Below, piece after piece: positions 16,721 to 20,313 of a stretch of 44,109 nucleotides of DNA. Every line of letters begins with the position of its first letter. Position 1 is the stretch's first letter. Location of the stretch: the IMG/VR virus record IMGVR_UViG_3300025812_000003. One strand, 5' to 3'. Origin of the DNA: a virus. The notes under the pieces are model-generated. The model did not search any database. It worked only from the letters and a program-made list of their open reading frames with translations, and had not been told where the DNA came from. The translations under genes were made by a program, and so were the position numbers.

Positions 16721-16795
16721 TGGAGCGGGGGACGGGGATCGAACCCGCGACGTCCAGCTTGGGAAGCTGGCATTCTACCGCTGAATTACCCCCGC
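16721..16795 (-). tRNA. tRNA-Gly(CCC)
   Basis: Cloverleaf; CCAGC-TTCCCAA-GCTGG; U73, encoded CCA. Confidence 0.95.
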
Positions 16796-16803
16796 TTCTA
16801 TTT

Positions 16804-17005
16804 AAGGGCGCGGCAGTCAAGATTTGGGCCGGGGGCCAACGCCGGTCAGCGGCGTGGTGGACTACCAACCATCATCAACGGCGAAAACGAACCACCAACC
16901 ACCGACAACCAACAGTTCCCTAACAGGCTCACGCCCGCAGTGTAACCCTGCCGACTATCTTTATCGTCGGAGGCCAGGTAAGGCTTTCCGACTAGCCGCG
17001 CTCTT
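16804..17005 (-). ncRNA. unassigned ~200-nt structured RNA with GU-repeat loop
   Basis: 5' GCGCGGC-U-AGUC pairs with 3' GACU-GCCGCGC; internal hairpins CCGAC/GUCGG, GCGGGC-GUGA-GCCUGU, ACGCCG/CGGCGU. Confidence 0.6.
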
Positions 17006-17032
17006 CCGGGCGGCCCCCGTCAACTTGGCTGC

Positions 17033-17344
17033 CTACTCCTTCTTGGCCGGCACGAGCTCGCCGAGGACGTCCTCGTTGGGCTCGTATCCCTTGATGGCCG
17101 CCACGGCGTTGGTCGCCTTGATGGCCATGTCCAGCTTCCGGCGCTCGCGGGCGATGTTGGATATGAGCCTGTCCAGGGCCACGACGTCGTACGTCGGCTC
17201 GACCTTCTCCGGCGTGTCGCCCTTCAGTCCGCGATAGGTCGTCCGTGCGGCGGAGTTCTCGTTGCGCAGGCCCTGGAGCTCGGCGTGCCGCTCGGCCAGC
17301 GTCTTCGCCCACGTGAGCCCCTCGTTGATCGTCATCTTTGTCAT
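17033..17344 (-). CDS. DUF6847/DIP1984-like coiled-coil protein
   Basis: MTINEGLTWAKTLAERHAEL..PTYDVVALDRLISNIARERRKLDMAIKATNA; RBS GGAGG; own promoter motif at 17364-17372. Confidence 0.6.
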   Translation of the reverse strand: MTKMTINEGLTWAKTLAERHAELQGLRNENSAARTTYRGLKGDTPEKVEPTYDVVALDRLISNIARERRKLDMAIKATNAVAAIKGYEPNEDVLGELVPAKKE

Positions 17345-17378
17345 GTCCGTTTCCTCCCGAAGCACAATACCGAAAAAT

Positions 17379-17678
17379 TCGTGGACCGGTAAGCCGAATT
17401 CTGTCCCTCTTGCGAGGTGGCAACCATTCGTCTGGGACGGCCGTCGCCGGCCGCCTCAAGCTCGCTACCCGAGGGTGATGCGGGCCGGGCAGGCCCTCCC
17501 CTCCTATTTGCGATTGCTCCGCATGAAGCTTGCCGCGTTTCACTCCGGACCTAACCGGCTCGTCTCTGTGGCGCTGGTTGTCACGCCTTGCGGCGTGCCG
17601 GGGCGTTACCCCGCATGCTGCCCTATGGAGTTCGGACTTTCCTCCCCCCCTCACGGGGCGGCGGTTGCCTGGTCCACA
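17379..17678 (-). ncRNA. rnpB: RNase P RNA (compact bacterial type A-like)
   Basis: GAGGAAAGUCC and ACAGAAUUCGGCUUA P4 signatures; AGCGCCACAGAGA and GUGAAAC conserved regions; P1 GUGGACC/GGUCCAC; GGCAACC/GGUUGCC P2. Confidence 0.95.
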
Positions 17679-17680
17679 AG

Positions 17681-18094
17681 CTAGGCTGCCTGGAACTCCC
17701 CCTGCCTGACCCCCTCCTCGTACCACGAGGCCCAATTGGCCATCTCCCTGAGCGCGAGGTCGGGGTCCAGGTACACCCCCGCGCACGTCCCGCGCCCTCC
17801 CGGGGCGAACATCCTGCGGACCAGCGGGCTCATCCGCTTGATGTCCCCGATGCCGAGGGACAGGAGCTCGAAGTCGGGGCCGGGCGGGAAGCACGGCGTG
17901 CCGTCCCCTCCCTCGGGGGCCTCCTTGAGCCGGAACGATATCCTGCGCTCGGCGGGGAGCGAGACAGCGACCGACACGTCGTCGTCGTACCTGCCCGCGG
18001 ACGACGCCCTGAGCCGGGCCTCGAAGATCGGCTCCTCGGTCCTGTAGAGGCGCTTCACCAAGTCCGCAGCGGATGCCCTGCTTGCATTGTCCAT
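17681..18094 (-). CDS. hypothetical protein
   Basis: ATG 18094 after GGAGG; fills the gap between ssrA and rnpB. Confidence 0.55.
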   Translation of the reverse strand: MDNASRASAADLVKRLYRTEEPIFEARLRASSAGRYDDDVSVAVSLPAERRISFRLKEAPEGGDGTPCFPPGPDFELLSLGIGDIKRMSPLVRRMFAPGGRGTCAGVYLDPDLALREMANWASWYEEGVRQGEFQAA

Positions 18095-18135
18095 TTTCGT
18101 ATACCCTCCAGTCAAATACCAGGGATCACGGAATC

Positions 18136-18493
18136 TGGTGGAGGCGGGGGGAGTCGAACCCCCGTCCGAGGAGTCCCACGATCAGGAGACTACACGCTTG
18201 TCCCGGTTCCACTGCCTTCGCCAGCGCCCCAAGGTACCGGGCGATGCAAGGACGCTGGCTAACTTTCGGAAATTCGCCCCGGCCTGCAAGCTTCGCCGGA
18301 GCTACTCTCGCCATATCAACGCCCCGTCCCCTGCATGCGAGCCTGGAGGGGGAGGCGTGGCCCAGATGTCTCTAGGCCATTGCGTACATAGCAAGTGGTT
18401 TTGCGTCTGTACTTTCCATCCCTGTTGCGGGCGGCATGGTCCCCCGGCGTGCCTCCTGGACACGAGCGCTCCCGTCGAAACCGGAACGCCCCC
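18136..18493 (-). ncRNA. ssrA: tmRNA; predicted tag (A)AKPLAMYAMA at 18404-18372
   Basis: 5' GGGGGCG..GGUUUCGAC, 3' GGUUCGACUCCCCCCGCCUCCACCA, G3:U70 pair, 358 nt, internal GCA-initiated short frame. Confidence 0.95.
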
Positions 18494-18527
18494 ACAGTTG
18501 TATGATACAACGAAAAGCCAAGCAACT

Positions 18528-18621
18528 TGGTCCCGGCGTCAGGAGTCGAACCCGATCCATGCTCTAATCTGGAGCTTATGCGGTTTATAAGACCGCTCGT
18601 TCGGCCGCAAACTTCGCCGGG
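18528..18621 (-). tRNA. atypical tRNA with UAU (Ile) anticodon and long variable arm
   Basis: CCCGGCG/CGCCGGG-ACCA; GCGGT-CTTATAA-ACCGC; ~24-nt extra arm with GCUC/GAGC stem; TTCGACT loop. Confidence 0.8.
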
Positions 18622-18691
18622 CAAAATAACGGGCGGGACATCAGCCTATAAAGCCGCCCCGAAGGGCGGCACATTCGCTCCCGCCCGAAAA

Positions 18692-18768
18692 TGGTACCGT
18701 CGACGGGGCTCAAACCCGCTAATGCCCTGGTTGAAAGCCAGGGGACTCGATGCTTCGTCTTCGACGGT
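18692..18768 (-). tRNA. tRNA-Glu(UUC), non-canonical D and T loops
   Basis: ACCGTCG/CGACGGT-ACCA; CCTGG-CTTTCAA-CCAGG; T-loop TTTGAGC; no GG in D-loop. Confidence 0.8.
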
Positions 18769-18773
18769 AAAAC

Positions 18774-18926
18774 GAGGCGATGGCCGATGCCGTTCGGCAA
18801 CAGGCCAACGGCAGCCACGAAGACTGCCGACTGCGCGGCCACTCGGTTTCTCTCCTGCCCCGATCCGCTGCGCCGGAACTCCAAGGAGACTCTGTCCGGC
18901 CGCTCCTTGCCAGCCTTCATCGCCCC
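18774..18926 (-). ncRNA. unassigned ~153-nt multi-branched RNA between tRNA-Cys and tRNA-Glu
   Basis: GGGGCGAUG/CAUCGCCUC closing stem; GCGGCC/GGCCGC; CGGCAGUC-UUCG-UGGCUGCCG; UGCCG-AA-CGGCA. Confidence 0.55.
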
Positions 18927-18929
18927 AAC

Positions 18930-19005
18930 TGGAGCACCCGGAGGGACTCGAACCCCCGATTAGAGGCTCTGCAGGCCTCCGCCTTTGCCGCTTGGCCACG
19001 GGTGC
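18930..19005 (-). tRNA. tRNA-Cys(GCA)
   Basis: GAGGC-CTGCAGA-GCCTC; U73; CCA. Confidence 0.93.
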
Positions 19006-19011
19006 CAAAAC

Positions 19012-19460: not shown

Positions 19461-19467
19461 GAAAACT

Positions 19468-19543
19468 TGGTGGAAGCGAAGGGATTCGGACCCTCTGCCT
19501 CGGCGTTGCGAGCGCCGCGCTCTCCCAATTGAGCTACGCTCCC
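19468..19543 (-). tRNA. tRNA-Ala(CGC)
   Basis: CGGCG-CTCGCAA-CGCCG; G3:U70; CCA. Confidence 0.93.
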
Positions 19544-19544
19544 A

Positions 19545-19619
19545 TGGTGCGACCTACAGGAGTCGAACCTGTCGCTCCTTCCGTGTCAGGGAAGGCGTCT
19601 ACCGCTGGCATAAGGCCGC
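19545..19619 (-). tRNA. tRNA-Val(GAC)
   Basis: CTTCC-CTGACAC-GGAAG; TTCGACT; ACCA; weak D stem. Confidence 0.9.
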
Positions 19620-19627
19620 ACGAAATT

Positions 19628-19706
19628 TGGCGGTCTGTACGGGATTCGGACCCGTGGTCTCTGACGTGACAGGTCAGCGGGGACGACCAGGCTCCCCTAA
19701 CAGACC
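19628..19706 (-). tRNA. tRNA-Asp(GUC)
   Basis: CTGAC-CTGTCAC-GTCAG; G73; CCA. Confidence 0.93.
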
Positions 19707-19713
19707 GAAAGAC

Positions 19714-19833
19714 TGGCGGCAAGGCCGGGATAGCTTTGGCCCCCTGCCCGGACGTGGTATCCGGAAGCGCTGGGACGCTCGCTTTATCCGACTTGACCCA
19801 GCACCCGACCCGCAGGCCGGGCCGCCAGATGCC
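19714..19833 (-). ncRNA. unassigned ~120-nt CCA-terminated multi-arm RNA
   Basis: Ends UUGCC-G-CCA, 5' GGCA can close it; arms CCCGGCC/GGUCGGG, GCUGGG/CCCAGC, CCGGA/UCCGG, GGCC/GGCC; no TTCGA loop. Confidence 0.5.
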
Positions 19834-19839
19834 GAACCT

Positions 19840-19915
19840 TGGTGGACCCGGGGGGGCTCGAACCCCCGACCTCATGGCTGCCGGCCATGCGCTCTCCCGG
19901 CTGAGCTACGGGCCC
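19840..19915 (-). tRNA. tRNA-Ala(GGC)
   Basis: CATGG-CCGGCAG-CCATG; G3:U70; CCA. Confidence 0.93.
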
Positions 19916-19922
19916 ACGAAAA

Positions 19923-19996
19923 TGGAGCGGGACACGGGACTCGGACCCGTTTCTCTGGCTTGGAGGGCCAGGGCACAACCCATATACCAGTCCCGC
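19923..19996 (-). tRNA. tRNA-Gly(UCC)
   Basis: CTGGC-CCTCCAA-GCCAG; U73; CCA. Confidence 0.9.
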
Positions 19997-20004
19997 TCAA
20001 AGCT

Positions 20005-20079
20005 TGGTGGACCCGGAGGGAGTCGAACCCCCGACCTCTGCATTGCAAGTGCAGCGCCTTCCCGCTCGGCTACGAGCCC
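20005..20079 (-). tRNA. tRNA-Ala(UGC)
   Basis: CTGCA-CTTGCAA-TGCAG; G3:U70; CCA. Confidence 0.94.
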
Positions 20080-20081
20080 AC

Positions 20082-20144
20082 GGGATGCCTCGGGTCATTG
20101 CTTTATTCGGACGTGGCCGACTTGCGCAGACGCCAAAACATCCC
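20082..20144 (-). ncRNA. structured inter-tRNA spacer
   Basis: 12-bp stem GGGAUGUUUUGG/CCGAGGCAUCCC (with G:U pairs) enclosing UGC..UCGG/CCGA..GCA. Confidence 0.4.
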
Positions 20145-20151
20145 ACGAACC

Positions 20152-20226
20152 TGGAGCGGGCGAGGGGAGTCGAACCCCCCACCTGAGCCTTGGCAAGGCC
20201 CCACTCTACCGCTGAGCTACGCCCGC
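20152..20226 (-). tRNA. tRNA-Gly(GCC)
   Basis: GGGCC-TTGCCAA-GGCTC; U73; CCA. Confidence 0.95.
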
Positions 20227-20234
20227 CCGAAACT

Positions 20235-20313
20235 TGGTACTGGGGGTGGGATTCGAACCCACGATATGCCTGTTTGTAGGACAGGAGGCTTTGGCCGCTC
20301 GCCGCACCCCAGT
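20235..20313 (-). tRNA. tRNA-Val(UAC)
   Basis: ACTGGGG/CCCCAGT-ACCA; CCTGT-CCTACAA-ACAGG; TTCGAAT. Confidence 0.88.

What the first reader, a model, noticed from the sequence alone, without database searches (positions are those of the whole stretch)
16721..20313. tRNA array organised by first codon base (near-complete GNN set)
Seen: Val UAC/GAC, Ala UGC/GGC/CGC, Asp GUC, Glu UUC/CUC and Gly GCC/UCC/CCC, so 11 of 13 tRNAs have C36. With wobble they cover all 16 GNN codons. The only others are Cys GCA and Ile UAU. A random draw from a tRNA pool would give about a quarter GNN readers. Inference: tRNAs are grouped by codon row, or by the specificity of a host tRNase, and sister arrays for ANN/CNN/UNN may lie elsewhere in the genome.
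Basis: partly seen in the sequence, partly recalled or inferred. Interest (0 to 1): 0.8.

Follow-up and report, generated by a model that had tools for sequence, protein, structure and literature searches.

The report
Leader-gated GNN tRNA operon of phage
A giant peat phage keeps nearly all its tRNAs for G-starting codons (plus cysteine), an RNase P RNA and a tmRNA in one block, behind a tiny gene spelled in those same codons and a transcription stop, which is likely a feedback switch that would turn the tRNA block on when those tRNAs run short.

Summary
The 13th, Glu-UUC, is a conserved non-canonical tRNA-like gene that neither program calls. The block also holds a tmRNA and a type-A RNase P RNA.

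The window is a fragment of a phage of about 320 kb. The same "GNN + Cys + RNase P RNA" array occurs in seven lineages: 80 of 93 tRNAs read GNN, against 0 of 79 in their other arrays. In a 99%-complete relative the split is 13 of 15 against 0 of 45.

The sister arrays are not ANN, CNN and UNN rows. They hold Leu/Ser/Tyr, a mixed set of nine amino acids, and Ile/Thr/Gln.

Each array follows a promoter-like motif, a 20-40-codon leader ORF rich in the codons its own tRNAs read, and an intrinsic terminator with a competing upstream helix. I read this as a predicted leader-peptide attenuator. It is untested by experiment.

This scan noted the same design earlier on another genome (e1-5880136). I retested it here independently. 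My literature searches found no description. Why the GNN row and Cys share a unit remains unexplained.

The parts
20511..20522 (-). Promoter-like motif (extended -10 type) 10 nt upstream of the leader ORF
   Evidence: The 12-nt motif occurs 4 times in the window against 0.28 expected. By eye, near-identical motifs precede the leaders of relatives' arrays. A scan of viral contigs with it returned 18 loci; 13 have tRNAs downstream, mostly arrays of relatives. Its function is inferred.
20384..20500 (-). Leader ORF of 38 codons plus stop, rich in the codons read by the tRNAs downstream
   Evidence: Of 37 sense codons after the start, 23 are GNN, 2 are TGC and 2 are ATA, so 27 are read by the array. 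The background in 27 window ORFs (11,005 codons) is 39% (P = 3e-5). The leader holds 13 distinct GNN codons. 9 of its 23 GNN codons end in A or T, against 16.5% in the ORFs (P = 0.008). Comparable leaders precede the GNN array in 7 of 7 lineages.
20356..20408 (-). Predicted antiterminator. The outer helix pairs the last leader codons (20401-20408) with 20356-20364. The inner hairpin (20388-20394 with 20370-20376) encloses the stop codon.
   Evidence: Folds of the nascent and of the full RNA. The outer helix on alignment A2 of 7 lineages has 96.4% of 56 cells paired and 2 of 8 pairs with changes on both sides. Only 2-3 of 500 shuffles score as high, and slid controls pair 39-59%.
20324..20361 (-). 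Intrinsic terminator (13-pair stem, U-rich tail) ending about 10 nt before the first tRNA
   Evidence: Called by the terminator scan at 20361-20333. Its 5' strand overlaps the 3' strand of the antiterminator by 6 nt. With the ribosome footprint at the stop codon masked, the full terminator is the best fold in the 7 GNN attenuators.
20235..20313 (-). tRNA-Val (UAC)
   Evidence: ARAGORN; Rfam tRNA 45.2 bits
20152..20226 (-). tRNA-Gly (GCC)
20005..20079 (-). tRNA-Ala (UGC)
19923..19996 (-). tRNA-Gly (UCC)
19840..19915 (-). tRNA-Ala (GGC)
19628..19706 (-). tRNA-Asp (GUC)
19545..19619 (-). tRNA-Val (GAC)
19468..19543 (-). tRNA-Ala (CGC)
19386..19460 (-). tRNA-Glu (CUC)
18930..19005 (-). tRNA-Cys (GCA), the constant non-GNN member of this array
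   Evidence: One or two Cys-GCA genes sit in the array in 7 of 7 lineages. Each leader has 1-2 Cys codons.
18692..18768 (-).
   Evidence: Not called by ARAGORN or by Rfam at E <= 1. Read from the sequence. Aligns to homologues in G011 and G007 with paired changes in the acceptor and anticodon stems, read by eye from A3; BLAST recovers the G011 homologue only. It lies where G007 has Glu-UUC.
18528..18621 (-). 94-nt tRNA with a long variable arm and a UAU anticodon (would read AUA)
   Evidence: ARAGORN. Best Rfam score is tRNA-Sec at 35 bits, below threshold. Cloverleaf fold with an extra arm. 88% identical to a copy in G007 at L127 6849-6942, with paired changes in four stems.
18136..18493 (-). 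tmRNA, with a promoter-like motif of its own just upstream
   Evidence: ARAGORN and Rfam, 120.6 bits. The motif upstream is seen in alignment A3. A tmRNA lies in the same place in G007 and G011.
17374..17680 (-). Bacterial type-A RNase P RNA with a shortened specificity domain
   Evidence: Rfam RF00010, 203 bits against a threshold of 100. Two model stretches of 28 and 49 positions are replaced by 10 and 14 nt. It is present in the GNN array of all 7 lineages.
16721..16795 (-). tRNA-Gly (CCC), set apart downstream of the RNase P RNA as in G007 and G011

Best explanation
The block is a conserved phage tRNA operon holding the decoders of the GNN codon row plus cysteine, and it is likely switched by a leader-peptide transcription attenuator that would sense the supply of those same tRNAs.

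**Shown by the calls**
- The tRNAs, tmRNA and RNase P RNA all lie on one strand.
- The membership 'GNN + Cys + RNase P RNA' recurs in seven lineages and is absent from their other arrays.
- Upstream lie a promoter-like motif, a 38-codon ORF made mostly of the codons the array reads, and an intrinsic terminator about 10 nt before the first tRNA.
- A helix between the last leader codons and the terminator's 5' strand is predicted, and it co-varies across lineages.

**Inferred mechanism**
1. A bacterial-type RNA polymerase starts at the motif, and a ribosome translates the leader right behind it.
2. If charged tRNAs for Ala, Gly, Val, Asp, Glu, Cys (and AUA) are plentiful, the ribosome would run to the stop codon and cover the upstream strand. 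The terminator would then form and the array would stay off.
3. If any of these tRNAs is scarce, the ribosome would stall earlier and the antiterminator would form. Transcription would then run into the tRNA genes, and the precursor would be cut by RNase P.

The block would thus be one of several self-regulating tRNA units. The grouping of tRNAs would follow from which tRNAs share a sensor, not from a genome-wide sort by codon row.
For: **1. The grouping is real and conserved.**
- In the RNase-P-bearing arrays, GNN decoders make up 10 of 12 (window), 13 of 15 (G004), 13 of 15 (G007), 12 of 14 (G008), 10 of 12 (G009), 11 of 12 (G010) and 11 of 13 (G011).
- In the other arrays they make up 0 of 12, 0 of 45, 0 of 13 and 0 of 9 (Fisher P from 2e-11 to 3e-5).
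- Two more lineages turned up in a promoter-motif scan. L135 has 13 of 13 listed tRNAs reading GNN, and L149 has 4 of 4.

**2. The leader is present.** A leader ORF lies upstream of the GNN array in 7 of 7 lineages. Each has 16-25 GNN codons among 30-40, covers 12-14 distinct GNN codons, and has 1-2 Cys codons.

**3. Leaders match their own arrays.**
- In G007, leader codons fall on their own array in 67 of 111 codon-to-array assignments. This is the best of the 24 possible pairings (the next best gives 50), and 0 of 100,000 pooled-codon shuffles reach it.
- The match reaches the codon level. The leader before the array with Gln-CUG uses CAG twice. The leader before the array with Gln-UUG uses CAA twice.
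- G004, G008 and G010 give 37, 36 and 34 on the diagonal against 14, 7 and 7 off it.

**4. Leader content tracks array membership.**
- The only GNN array that holds tRNA-Phe (G008) has the only leader with 3 Phe codons.
- ATA codons occur in the leaders of the window (2), G007 (1) and G011 (1). The UAU tRNA is found in the window and in G007.

**5. RNA structure.** The terminator is called by the scan. The outer helix is 96.4% paired, with two pairs changed on both sides.

**6. The window's leader is not an ordinary gene.** It is enriched for in-array codons (P = 3e-5) and for rare A/T-ending GNN codons (P = 0.008).

**7. The grouping does not come from sequence kinship.** tRNAs for different amino acids are 50.3% identical within the GNN array and 50.4% between arrays.
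Against: - **No expression data.** No RNA run holds this DNA, so translation of the leader, termination and read-through are all predictions.
- **Partial exclusivity.** In the window's full-length best fold, a shortened antiterminator and the whole terminator coexist. Exclusivity rests on a 6-nt overlap and on folding order.
- **Thin covariation.** Two of eight pairs change on both sides and five never vary. The seven sequences are related, which can inflate such counts.
- **Leader choice.** I picked the leaders by eye as the ATG ORF ending nearest the terminator. Other small ORFs exist in the same regions.
- **Foreign codons.** 10 of the window leader's 37 codons are not read by the array.
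- **Weak long-arm matches.** The Leu/Tyr leaders of G004, G008 and G010 match their arrays only weakly (7 of 22, 7 of 24 and 9 of 31). They hold Ser codons although no Ser tRNA lies in those arrays on those fragments.
- **Inserted genes.** In G004 and G009 an endonuclease-like ORF of several hundred bases lies between the attenuator and the first tRNA.
- **Unknown polymerase.** Which polymerase reads this region is not known.
- **The original question stays open.** The model does not say why the GNN row and Cys share a unit.
Confidence: 0.66

Rival explanations
1. The phage sorts its whole tRNA set by first codon base, with ANN, CNN and UNN arrays elsewhere.
For: The GNN row is cleanly set apart: 13 of 15 against 0 of 45 in G007. 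The order of position-36 letters along G007 is far from random, with 41 adjacent same-letter pairs against 14 expected.
Against: G007's other three arrays mix rows. They are Leu/Ser/Tyr, then His/Arg/Asn/Lys/Phe/Met/Pro/Gln/Trp, then Ile/Thr/Gln. Cys (a UGY reader) is a constant member of the GNN array. Much of the adjacency comes from isoacceptors lying side by side. After collapsing same-amino-acid runs, the signal falls to P = 0.08-0.17 in G004, G008 and G010; in G007 it stays at P = 0.002.
Confidence: 0.06
2. The array is a counter-measure to a host tRNA nuclease, or to host tRNA depletion, that hits tRNAs with C36. The phage would replace exactly the targets.
For: The set is complete and redundant for the GNN row, with three anticodons each for Ala and Gly. 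From general knowledge, phage tRNAs are known to offset host tRNA cleavage.
Against: I know of no nuclease with C36 specificity (recalled, not searched). The complete relative carries tRNAs for all 20 amino acids, so replacement is general. Cys, the UAU tRNA and Phe do not fit a C36 rule. This idea is compatible with the leader model as a trigger, but it is not needed to explain the grouping.
Confidence: 0.07
3. The grouping is a frozen accident of descent: the block was acquired or duplicated once and inherited. The small upstream ORF and hairpin are just an ordinary small gene, or the terminator of the gene upstream.
For: All carriers belong to one clade of huge phages. 13 other phage arrays with an RNase P RNA motif are mixed, at 71 of 317 GNN decoders. 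The covariation is modest. My crude automatic scan found no clear leaders in 12 such control loci.
Against: Gene order inside the array is reshuffled between lineages while membership is kept. tRNAs within the array are no more alike than tRNAs between arrays. Leader composition follows array content in four different arrays of one genome and follows the gain of Phe in G008. An unrelated small gene would not do that.
Confidence: 0.15
4. The block is set apart only because GNN codons are the most used, so their tRNAs need a strong promoter of their own. No sensing is involved.
For: GNN codons make up 36.8% of 11,005 codons in the window's ORFs. Only 13 of G007's 60 tRNA genes serve them.
Against: Cys (1.2% of codons) and AUA (1.1%) are in the unit. 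All arrays carry the same promoter-like motif. This reading explains neither the codon-matched leaders nor the terminators placed just before the first tRNA.
Confidence: 0.06

Closest known systems
Multivalent leader-peptide attenuators of enterobacterial amino-acid operons (thr, ilv, his, leu, trp, pheA leaders)
   Same: A short ORF lies just after the promoter and is enriched in the codons tied to the regulated product. An intrinsic terminator follows, with a competing upstream helix that overlaps the end of the ORF. Several amino acids are read by one leader, as in thr and ilv (textbook knowledge; pheL and his leaders were seen only as search listings).
   Different: The regulated genes here are the tRNAs themselves, plus an RNase P RNA in several lineages, not biosynthetic enzymes. 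The loop would therefore close on tRNA supply. The leader samples six amino acids and 12-14 different codons rather than a run of one or two. The system is phage-borne and present in four or more copies per genome, each tuned to another tRNA set.
tRNA gene arrays of large phages (T4 tRNA cluster; arrays of huge phages with up to 67 tRNAs, PMC7162821, passages read)
   Same: Many tRNA genes lie on one strand with short spacers. A tmRNA is present. Endonuclease genes are lodged in the arrays, as with T4 SegB (PMC2330249, abstract only).
   Different: The tRNAs are split into units by amino-acid set. Each unit has a codon-matched leader with a terminator. An RNase P RNA is embedded in one unit. 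The text of PMC7162821 has no occurrence of 'RNase P' or 'tRNA array'.
T-box riboswitches
   Same: They sense the supply of a given tRNA and act through a terminator-antiterminator choice.
   Different: T-boxes bind uncharged tRNA directly, without translation, and control synthetase and amino-acid genes. No T-box or other Rfam cis-regulator reaches its threshold in the window.
   Same: The same design was reported: GNN tRNAs plus Cys plus an RNase P RNA, behind a small ORF in the same codons and a switchable stop, in a giant peat phage.
   Different: It is on different DNA. I did not see its data. Everything claimed here was recomputed on this window and on seven to nine related records.

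Membership tests
Ribosome-mediated (leader-peptide) transcription attenuator | A short ORF with a start codon and a ribosome-binding site close behind a promoter | tested here: met
   The 38-codon ATG ORF lies at 20384-20500. A purine-rich stretch lies just upstream, and the promoter-like motif is at 20511-20522. That the promoter and the translation are active is inferred.
Ribosome-mediated (leader-peptide) transcription attenuator | The leader is enriched in codons cognate to what the operon supplies | tested here: met
   27 of 37 codons against a 39% background, P = 3e-5. 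G007 matrix 67 of 111 on the diagonal, with 0 of 100,000 shuffles as high. G004, G008 and G010.
Ribosome-mediated (leader-peptide) transcription attenuator | An intrinsic terminator between the leader and the first regulated gene | tested here: met
   13-pair stem with a U-rich tail at 20361-20333, about 20 nt before tRNA-Val. A comparable hairpin plus T-run follows the leader in 7 of 7 GNN lineages.
Ribosome-mediated (leader-peptide) transcription attenuator | An alternative helix that includes leader codons and excludes the terminator | tested here: inconclusive
   The helix is predicted and 96.4% paired across 7 lineages, with 2 pairs changed on both sides. In the window it overlaps the terminator strand by only 6 nt, and both structures coexist in the full-length best fold.
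Ribosome-mediated (leader-peptide) transcription attenuator | Read-through rises when the cognate charged tRNA is limiting and depends on leader translation | not testable with these tools
   This needs a reporter or a coupled in vitro assay. No RNA run holds the stretch.
Phage tRNA gene array | Many tRNA genes close together on one strand of a phage genome | tested here: met
   12 program-called tRNAs lie in 3.6 kb. Phage genes surround them, including helicase, ribonucleotide reductase, topoisomerase-like and lytic transglycosylase genes. The nearest record is an IMG/VR virus record.
Bacterial RNase P RNA, type A (RF00010) | Passes Rfam's curated score over the full model, with the conserved core | tested here: met
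   203.2 bits against 100, over model positions 1-367. Two peripheral stretches are shortened. Catalytic activity is not tested. No RNase P protein gene (PF00825) was found in the 5 related records searched, including the 99%-complete one.
T-box riboswitch | Match to the T-box model (specifier loop, T-box sequence) | tested here: not met
   No match at E <= 1 in 16000-21500, and none at gathering score in the window.

The most novel reading that the evidence does not exclude
A clade of huge phages runs a self-regulating decoding system. All of its roughly 60 tRNA genes are split into four or more operons. Each operon is gated by a leader peptide that mirrors, codon by codon, the tRNAs behind it. 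The phage therefore makes a given tRNA set only when ribosomes actually stall for it, for instance after host tRNA decay or cleavage by anticodon nucleases. A phage-encoded RNase P RNA and a tmRNA are wired into the same module. This would be the first attenuator known to control tRNA genes, and a natural readout of codon-specific translation speed.
Probability: 0.5. Interest if true: 0.9.

Novelty: new variant of a known kind. Interest (0 to 1): 0.8.

Why it matters
As far as I know, leader-peptide attenuation has been described for genes that make amino acids, not for genes that make tRNAs. My five literature searches found no such case.

If the switch works, it has four consequences:
- A virus would measure the decoding capacity of its host codon set by codon set and top it up on demand.
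- It would explain why huge phages carry near-complete tRNA sets, and how they keep such sets from being a burden.
- It would give a ready-made, compact sensor of tRNA supply for six amino acids at once.
- It would make the question of what phage tRNAs are for directly testable with a reporter.

It also places a ribozyme gene, the RNase P RNA, in phage genomes inside the very transcripts that RNase P is expected to process.

Tried and rejected
- **Own assembly.** It is not held, so searches of G000 and the file request failed. I worked with the nearest record, G001, and with relatives.
- **Isolated phages.** Megablast of the array against the isolated-phage collection gave only a 34-nt chance-like match.
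- **Relatives via the 144-aa ORF** between the tmRNA and the RNase P RNA: none found.
- **Relatives via the topoisomerase-like protein.** 11 loci at 41-47% identity had no tRNA within 10 kb. One of them led to G004.
- **Exact 28-nt RNase P pattern.** No hit. A degenerate pattern then worked.
- **RNA evidence.** No RNA holder is listed. The 20 runs that hold the stretch are peat or wetland DNA metagenomes kept as contigs. I did not lay them, since contigs cannot show RNA ends.
- **Origin by local duplication.** Rejected on similarity of 50.3% within the array against 50.4% between arrays.
- **Inner hairpin and terminator on alignment A2.** MAFFT puts them out of register between lineages, so I counted only the outer helix and read the others from the per-sequence folds.
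- **Automatic leader scan.** On 12 unrelated RNase-P-bearing phage arrays it gave 3 weak candidates in 3 loci (two are the same ORF) and none convincing. It also missed 1 of 4 positive controls, and the 10-kb loci may not reach the array starts. The result is inconclusive.
- **Not used.** Structure prediction, complex prediction and protein homology searches would not bear on this question.

Full report
**1. What is in the sequence**

ARAGORN on the whole window finds 12 tRNA genes and a tmRNA, all on the minus strand between 16721 and 20313, and none elsewhere. In the order of transcription they are:
- Val-UAC, Gly-GCC, Ala-UGC, Gly-UCC, Ala-GGC, Asp-GUC, Val-GAC, Ala-CGC, Glu-CUC, Cys-GCA;
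- a 94-nt tRNA with a UAU anticodon;
- the tmRNA;
- and, 1.3 kb further on, Gly-CCC.

Rfam adds a bacterial type-A RNase P RNA at 17374-17680. It scores 203 bits against a threshold of 100. Two peripheral stretches of the model are shortened.

A tRNA-like gene with acceptor, anticodon and T arms and a UUC loop does lie at about 18692-18768. It aligns to homologues in two relatives, with paired changes in two stems read by eye from the alignment. BLAST recovers only the G011 homologue. It sits where relatives carry Glu-UUC.

So 10 of 12 called tRNAs, or 11 of 13 with this gene, have C at anticodon position 36.

**2. Is it more than chance?**

Thirteen other phage tRNA arrays, found because they too carry the RNase P RNA motif, hold 71 GNN decoders among 317 tRNAs (22%). 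The highest share in any one of them is 47%. Against that null, 10 of 12 has P = 1e-5.

**3. Where it comes from**

The genes around the array are phage-like. They include a helicase, a ribonucleotide reductase, a topoisomerase-like protein, a DnaB-like helicase, a lytic transglycosylase and an HNH endonuclease.

The window's own assembly is not held. The nearest record, G001, is an IMG/VR virus record of 64.9 kb rated 20% complete. It carries the identical array and no other tRNA. The phage is therefore about 320 kb, and most of it is out of reach. The stretch is held by 20 peat or wetland DNA metagenome runs.

**4. Relatives**

A scan of viral contigs with a degenerate RNase P RNA core pattern gave 65 loci. 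ARAGORN on them, and on further stretches, shows a clade in which the RNase P RNA lies inside an array of GNN decoders plus Cys.

| Record | GNN decoders in the RNase P array | GNN decoders in its other arrays |
|---|---|---|
| window | 10 of 12 | none available |
| G004 | 13 of 15 | 0 of 12 |
| G007 | 13 of 15 | 0 of 45 |
| G008 | 12 of 14 | 0 of 13 |
| G009 | 10 of 12 | none available |
| G010 | 11 of 12 | 0 of 9 |
| G011 | 11 of 13 | none available |
| Total | 80 of 93 | 0 of 79 |

Fisher P ranges from 2e-11 to 3e-5.

The 13 non-GNN members are 10 Cys-GCA genes (at least one in every lineage), one Phe, the window's UAU tRNA and one uncalled anticodon.

Gene order inside the array differs between lineages, except that the window and G007 share theirs.

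**5. The sister arrays**

G007 is 316,945 bp and rated 99% complete. It has 62 Rfam tRNA matches (59 at or above the family's cut-off) and 60 ARAGORN tRNAs in four places:
- Array I holds Tyr, six Leu and three Ser. These are all the long-arm tRNAs.
- Array II holds His, Arg, Asn, Lys, Phe, Met, Pro, Gln-CUG and Trp.
- Array III holds the GNN decoders plus Cys.
- Array IV holds Ile, Thr and Gln-UUG.

They are not ANN, CNN and UNN rows.

**6. What organises them**

I took this as a lead and tested it here.

*In the window.* The 200 nt upstream of tRNA-Val hold four elements:
- A 12-nt promoter-like motif at 20511-20522. It occurs 4 times in the window against 0.28 expected.
- An ATG ORF of 38 codons at 20384-20500.
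- A hairpin that encloses its stop codon.
- An intrinsic terminator at 20361-20333, called by the scan tool.

*Codon content of the leader.* Of its 37 sense codons, 23 are GNN, 2 are TGC and 2 are ATA. That makes 27 codons read by the array, against a 39% background in 11,005 codons of 27 window ORFs (P = 3e-5). The leader uses 13 different GNN codons. 9 of its 23 GNN codons end in A or T, against 16.5% in the ORFs (P = 0.008).

*In relatives.* A comparable leader with a terminator precedes the GNN array in 7 of 7 lineages. In G004 and G009 an endonuclease-like ORF lies between it and the first tRNA.

**7. The test across arrays**

If the leaders are sensors, each array should have its own leader in its own codons. 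In G007 that is what I see:
- The leader before array I is rich in Leu, Ser and Tyr codons.
- The leader before array II is rich in Arg, Asn, Lys, Pro, Met, Gln, Trp, His and Phe codons.
- The leader before array IV is rich in Thr, Ile and Gln codons.

The match reaches the codon level. The array II leader uses CAG, and array II has Gln-CUG. The array IV leader uses CAA, and array IV has Gln-UUG.

Counted by simple wobble, 67 of 111 codon-to-array assignments fall on the leader's own array. This is the best of the 24 possible pairings, and the next best gives 50. None of 100,000 pooled-codon shuffles reaches it.

G004, G008 and G010 give 37, 36 and 34 on the diagonal against 14, 7 and 7 off it. 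Their Leu/Tyr leaders match only weakly, at 7 of 22, 7 of 24 and 9 of 31.

Leader content also follows membership:
- G008, the only GNN array with a Phe tRNA, has the only leader with three Phe codons.
- ATA codons occur in the leaders of the window, G007 and G011. The UAU tRNA is found in the window and in G007.

**8. The RNA switch**

In the nascent RNA, the last leader codons (20401-20408) pair with 20356-20364, which overlaps the terminator's 5' strand by 6 nt. In the full-length fold of the window, a shortened form of this helix coexists with the terminator.

In G008 and G004, the best full-length fold has the antiterminator and not the terminator. When the ribosome's footprint at the stop codon is masked, the full terminator forms in all seven.

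On an alignment of the seven lineages, the outer helix is 96.4% paired over 56 cells. Two of its eight pairs change on both sides, in five cells. Only 2-3 of 500 shuffles score as high, and slid controls pair 39-59%.

This is supportive but thin. Five pairs never vary, and the sequences are related.

**9. Mechanism (inferred)**

Plentiful charged tRNAs would let the ribosome reach the stop codon and cover the upstream strand. The terminator would then form and the array would stay off.

A shortage of any sampled tRNA would stall the ribosome earlier. The antiterminator would then form and the array would be transcribed. RNase P and other nucleases would cut the precursor.

No RNase P protein gene (PF00825) was found in the five related records searched, including G007. 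The phage RNA would therefore have to use the host's protein.

**10. Rivals**

- **Descent by local duplication** is not supported. tRNAs for different amino acids are 50.3% identical within the GNN array and 50.4% between arrays.
- **A C36-specific host nuclease** has no support here, and the relative's tRNA set is general.
- **High demand alone** does not explain the presence of Cys and AUA, nor the leaders.

**11. What stays open**

- Why the GNN row and Cys share a sensor.
- Whether the leader is translated.
- Which polymerase reads the unit.
- Which amino acids the two odd tRNAs carry.
- What the rest of the window's own genome holds.

**12. Literature**

Five full-text searches (listings and abstracts only) gave no paper on phage-encoded RNase P RNA, on tRNA arrays sorted by codon row, or on leader-peptide control of tRNA genes.

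The huge-phage survey PMC7162821 mentions tmRNAs and up to 67 tRNAs. It has no occurrence of 'RNase P' or 'tRNA array' in its main text (passages read; supplements not read). PMC8172020 mentions phages only in its reference list.

Papers outside this library may exist.

Noticed in passing
window 17374-17680 (-); also L055 14516-14878, L127 3983-4291, L068 4967-5291, L082 4705-5064, L095 4676-5062, L106 4965-5274: A bacterial type-A RNase P RNA is encoded by the phage inside its tRNA array. In G008 it is flanked by tRNAs with 6-nt spacers, so it would be cut out of the same precursor. A core-motif scan hit 65 viral contigs; about 28 of those loci hold 6 or more tRNAs near the motif. No RNase P protein gene was found in the five related records searched, including a 99%-complete one. 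My searches found no report of this.
   Followed up: partly
window 18528-18621 (-); L127 6849-6942: A 94-nt tRNA has a long variable arm and a UAU anticodon. It is conserved at 88% identity, with paired changes in four stems. ARAGORN misses the G007 copy. Long-arm tRNAs in bacteria are normally Leu, Ser, Tyr or Sec, so the amino acid it carries is unclear. The phage uses ATA for 117 of 456 Ile codons despite 62% G+C.
   Followed up: partly
window 18692-18768 (-): A tRNA-like gene has a UUC anticodon but a D region without the usual GG, and an altered T loop. It is conserved in G011, and a second copy stands beside the canonical Glu-UUC in G007.
   Followed up: partly
window 20080-20151 and 19707-19839 (-): Two structured spacers between tRNAs share a motif of 15 and 25 letters (spacing differs). 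The motif occurs twice in the window against 0 expected, and in no relative other than G001. The 72-nt spacer folds into a long hairpin (z = -2.9). Their function is unknown.
   Followed up: partly
L055 about 13285-13689; L133 about 9648-10052; L126 2635-3084: HNH-type endonuclease-like ORFs are lodged in or just before the tRNA arrays of relatives, between the attenuator and the first tRNA in G004 and G009. This recalls the homing endonuclease SegB in the T4 tRNA cluster.
   Followed up: no
L129 1659-1731 (G008): A lone tRNA with a CUA anticodon, which ARAGORN labels Pyl, would read the amber stop codon.
   Followed up: no
window 18136-18493 (-): The phage tmRNA encodes a 10-residue tag that does not end in the usual Ala-Ala. 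A promoter-like motif of its own lies just upstream, so it is probably a separate transcription unit inside the block.
   Followed up: partly
window 19006-19385 (-): Two small ORFs with hydrophobic stretches lie between tRNA-Glu and tRNA-Cys, inside the array.
   Followed up: no
window 20607-21272 (-): The gene just upstream of the tRNA unit encodes a protein ending in a PEP-CTERM sorting motif (Pfam E = 7e-6). This hints at a Gram-negative host with an exosortase.
   Followed up: no
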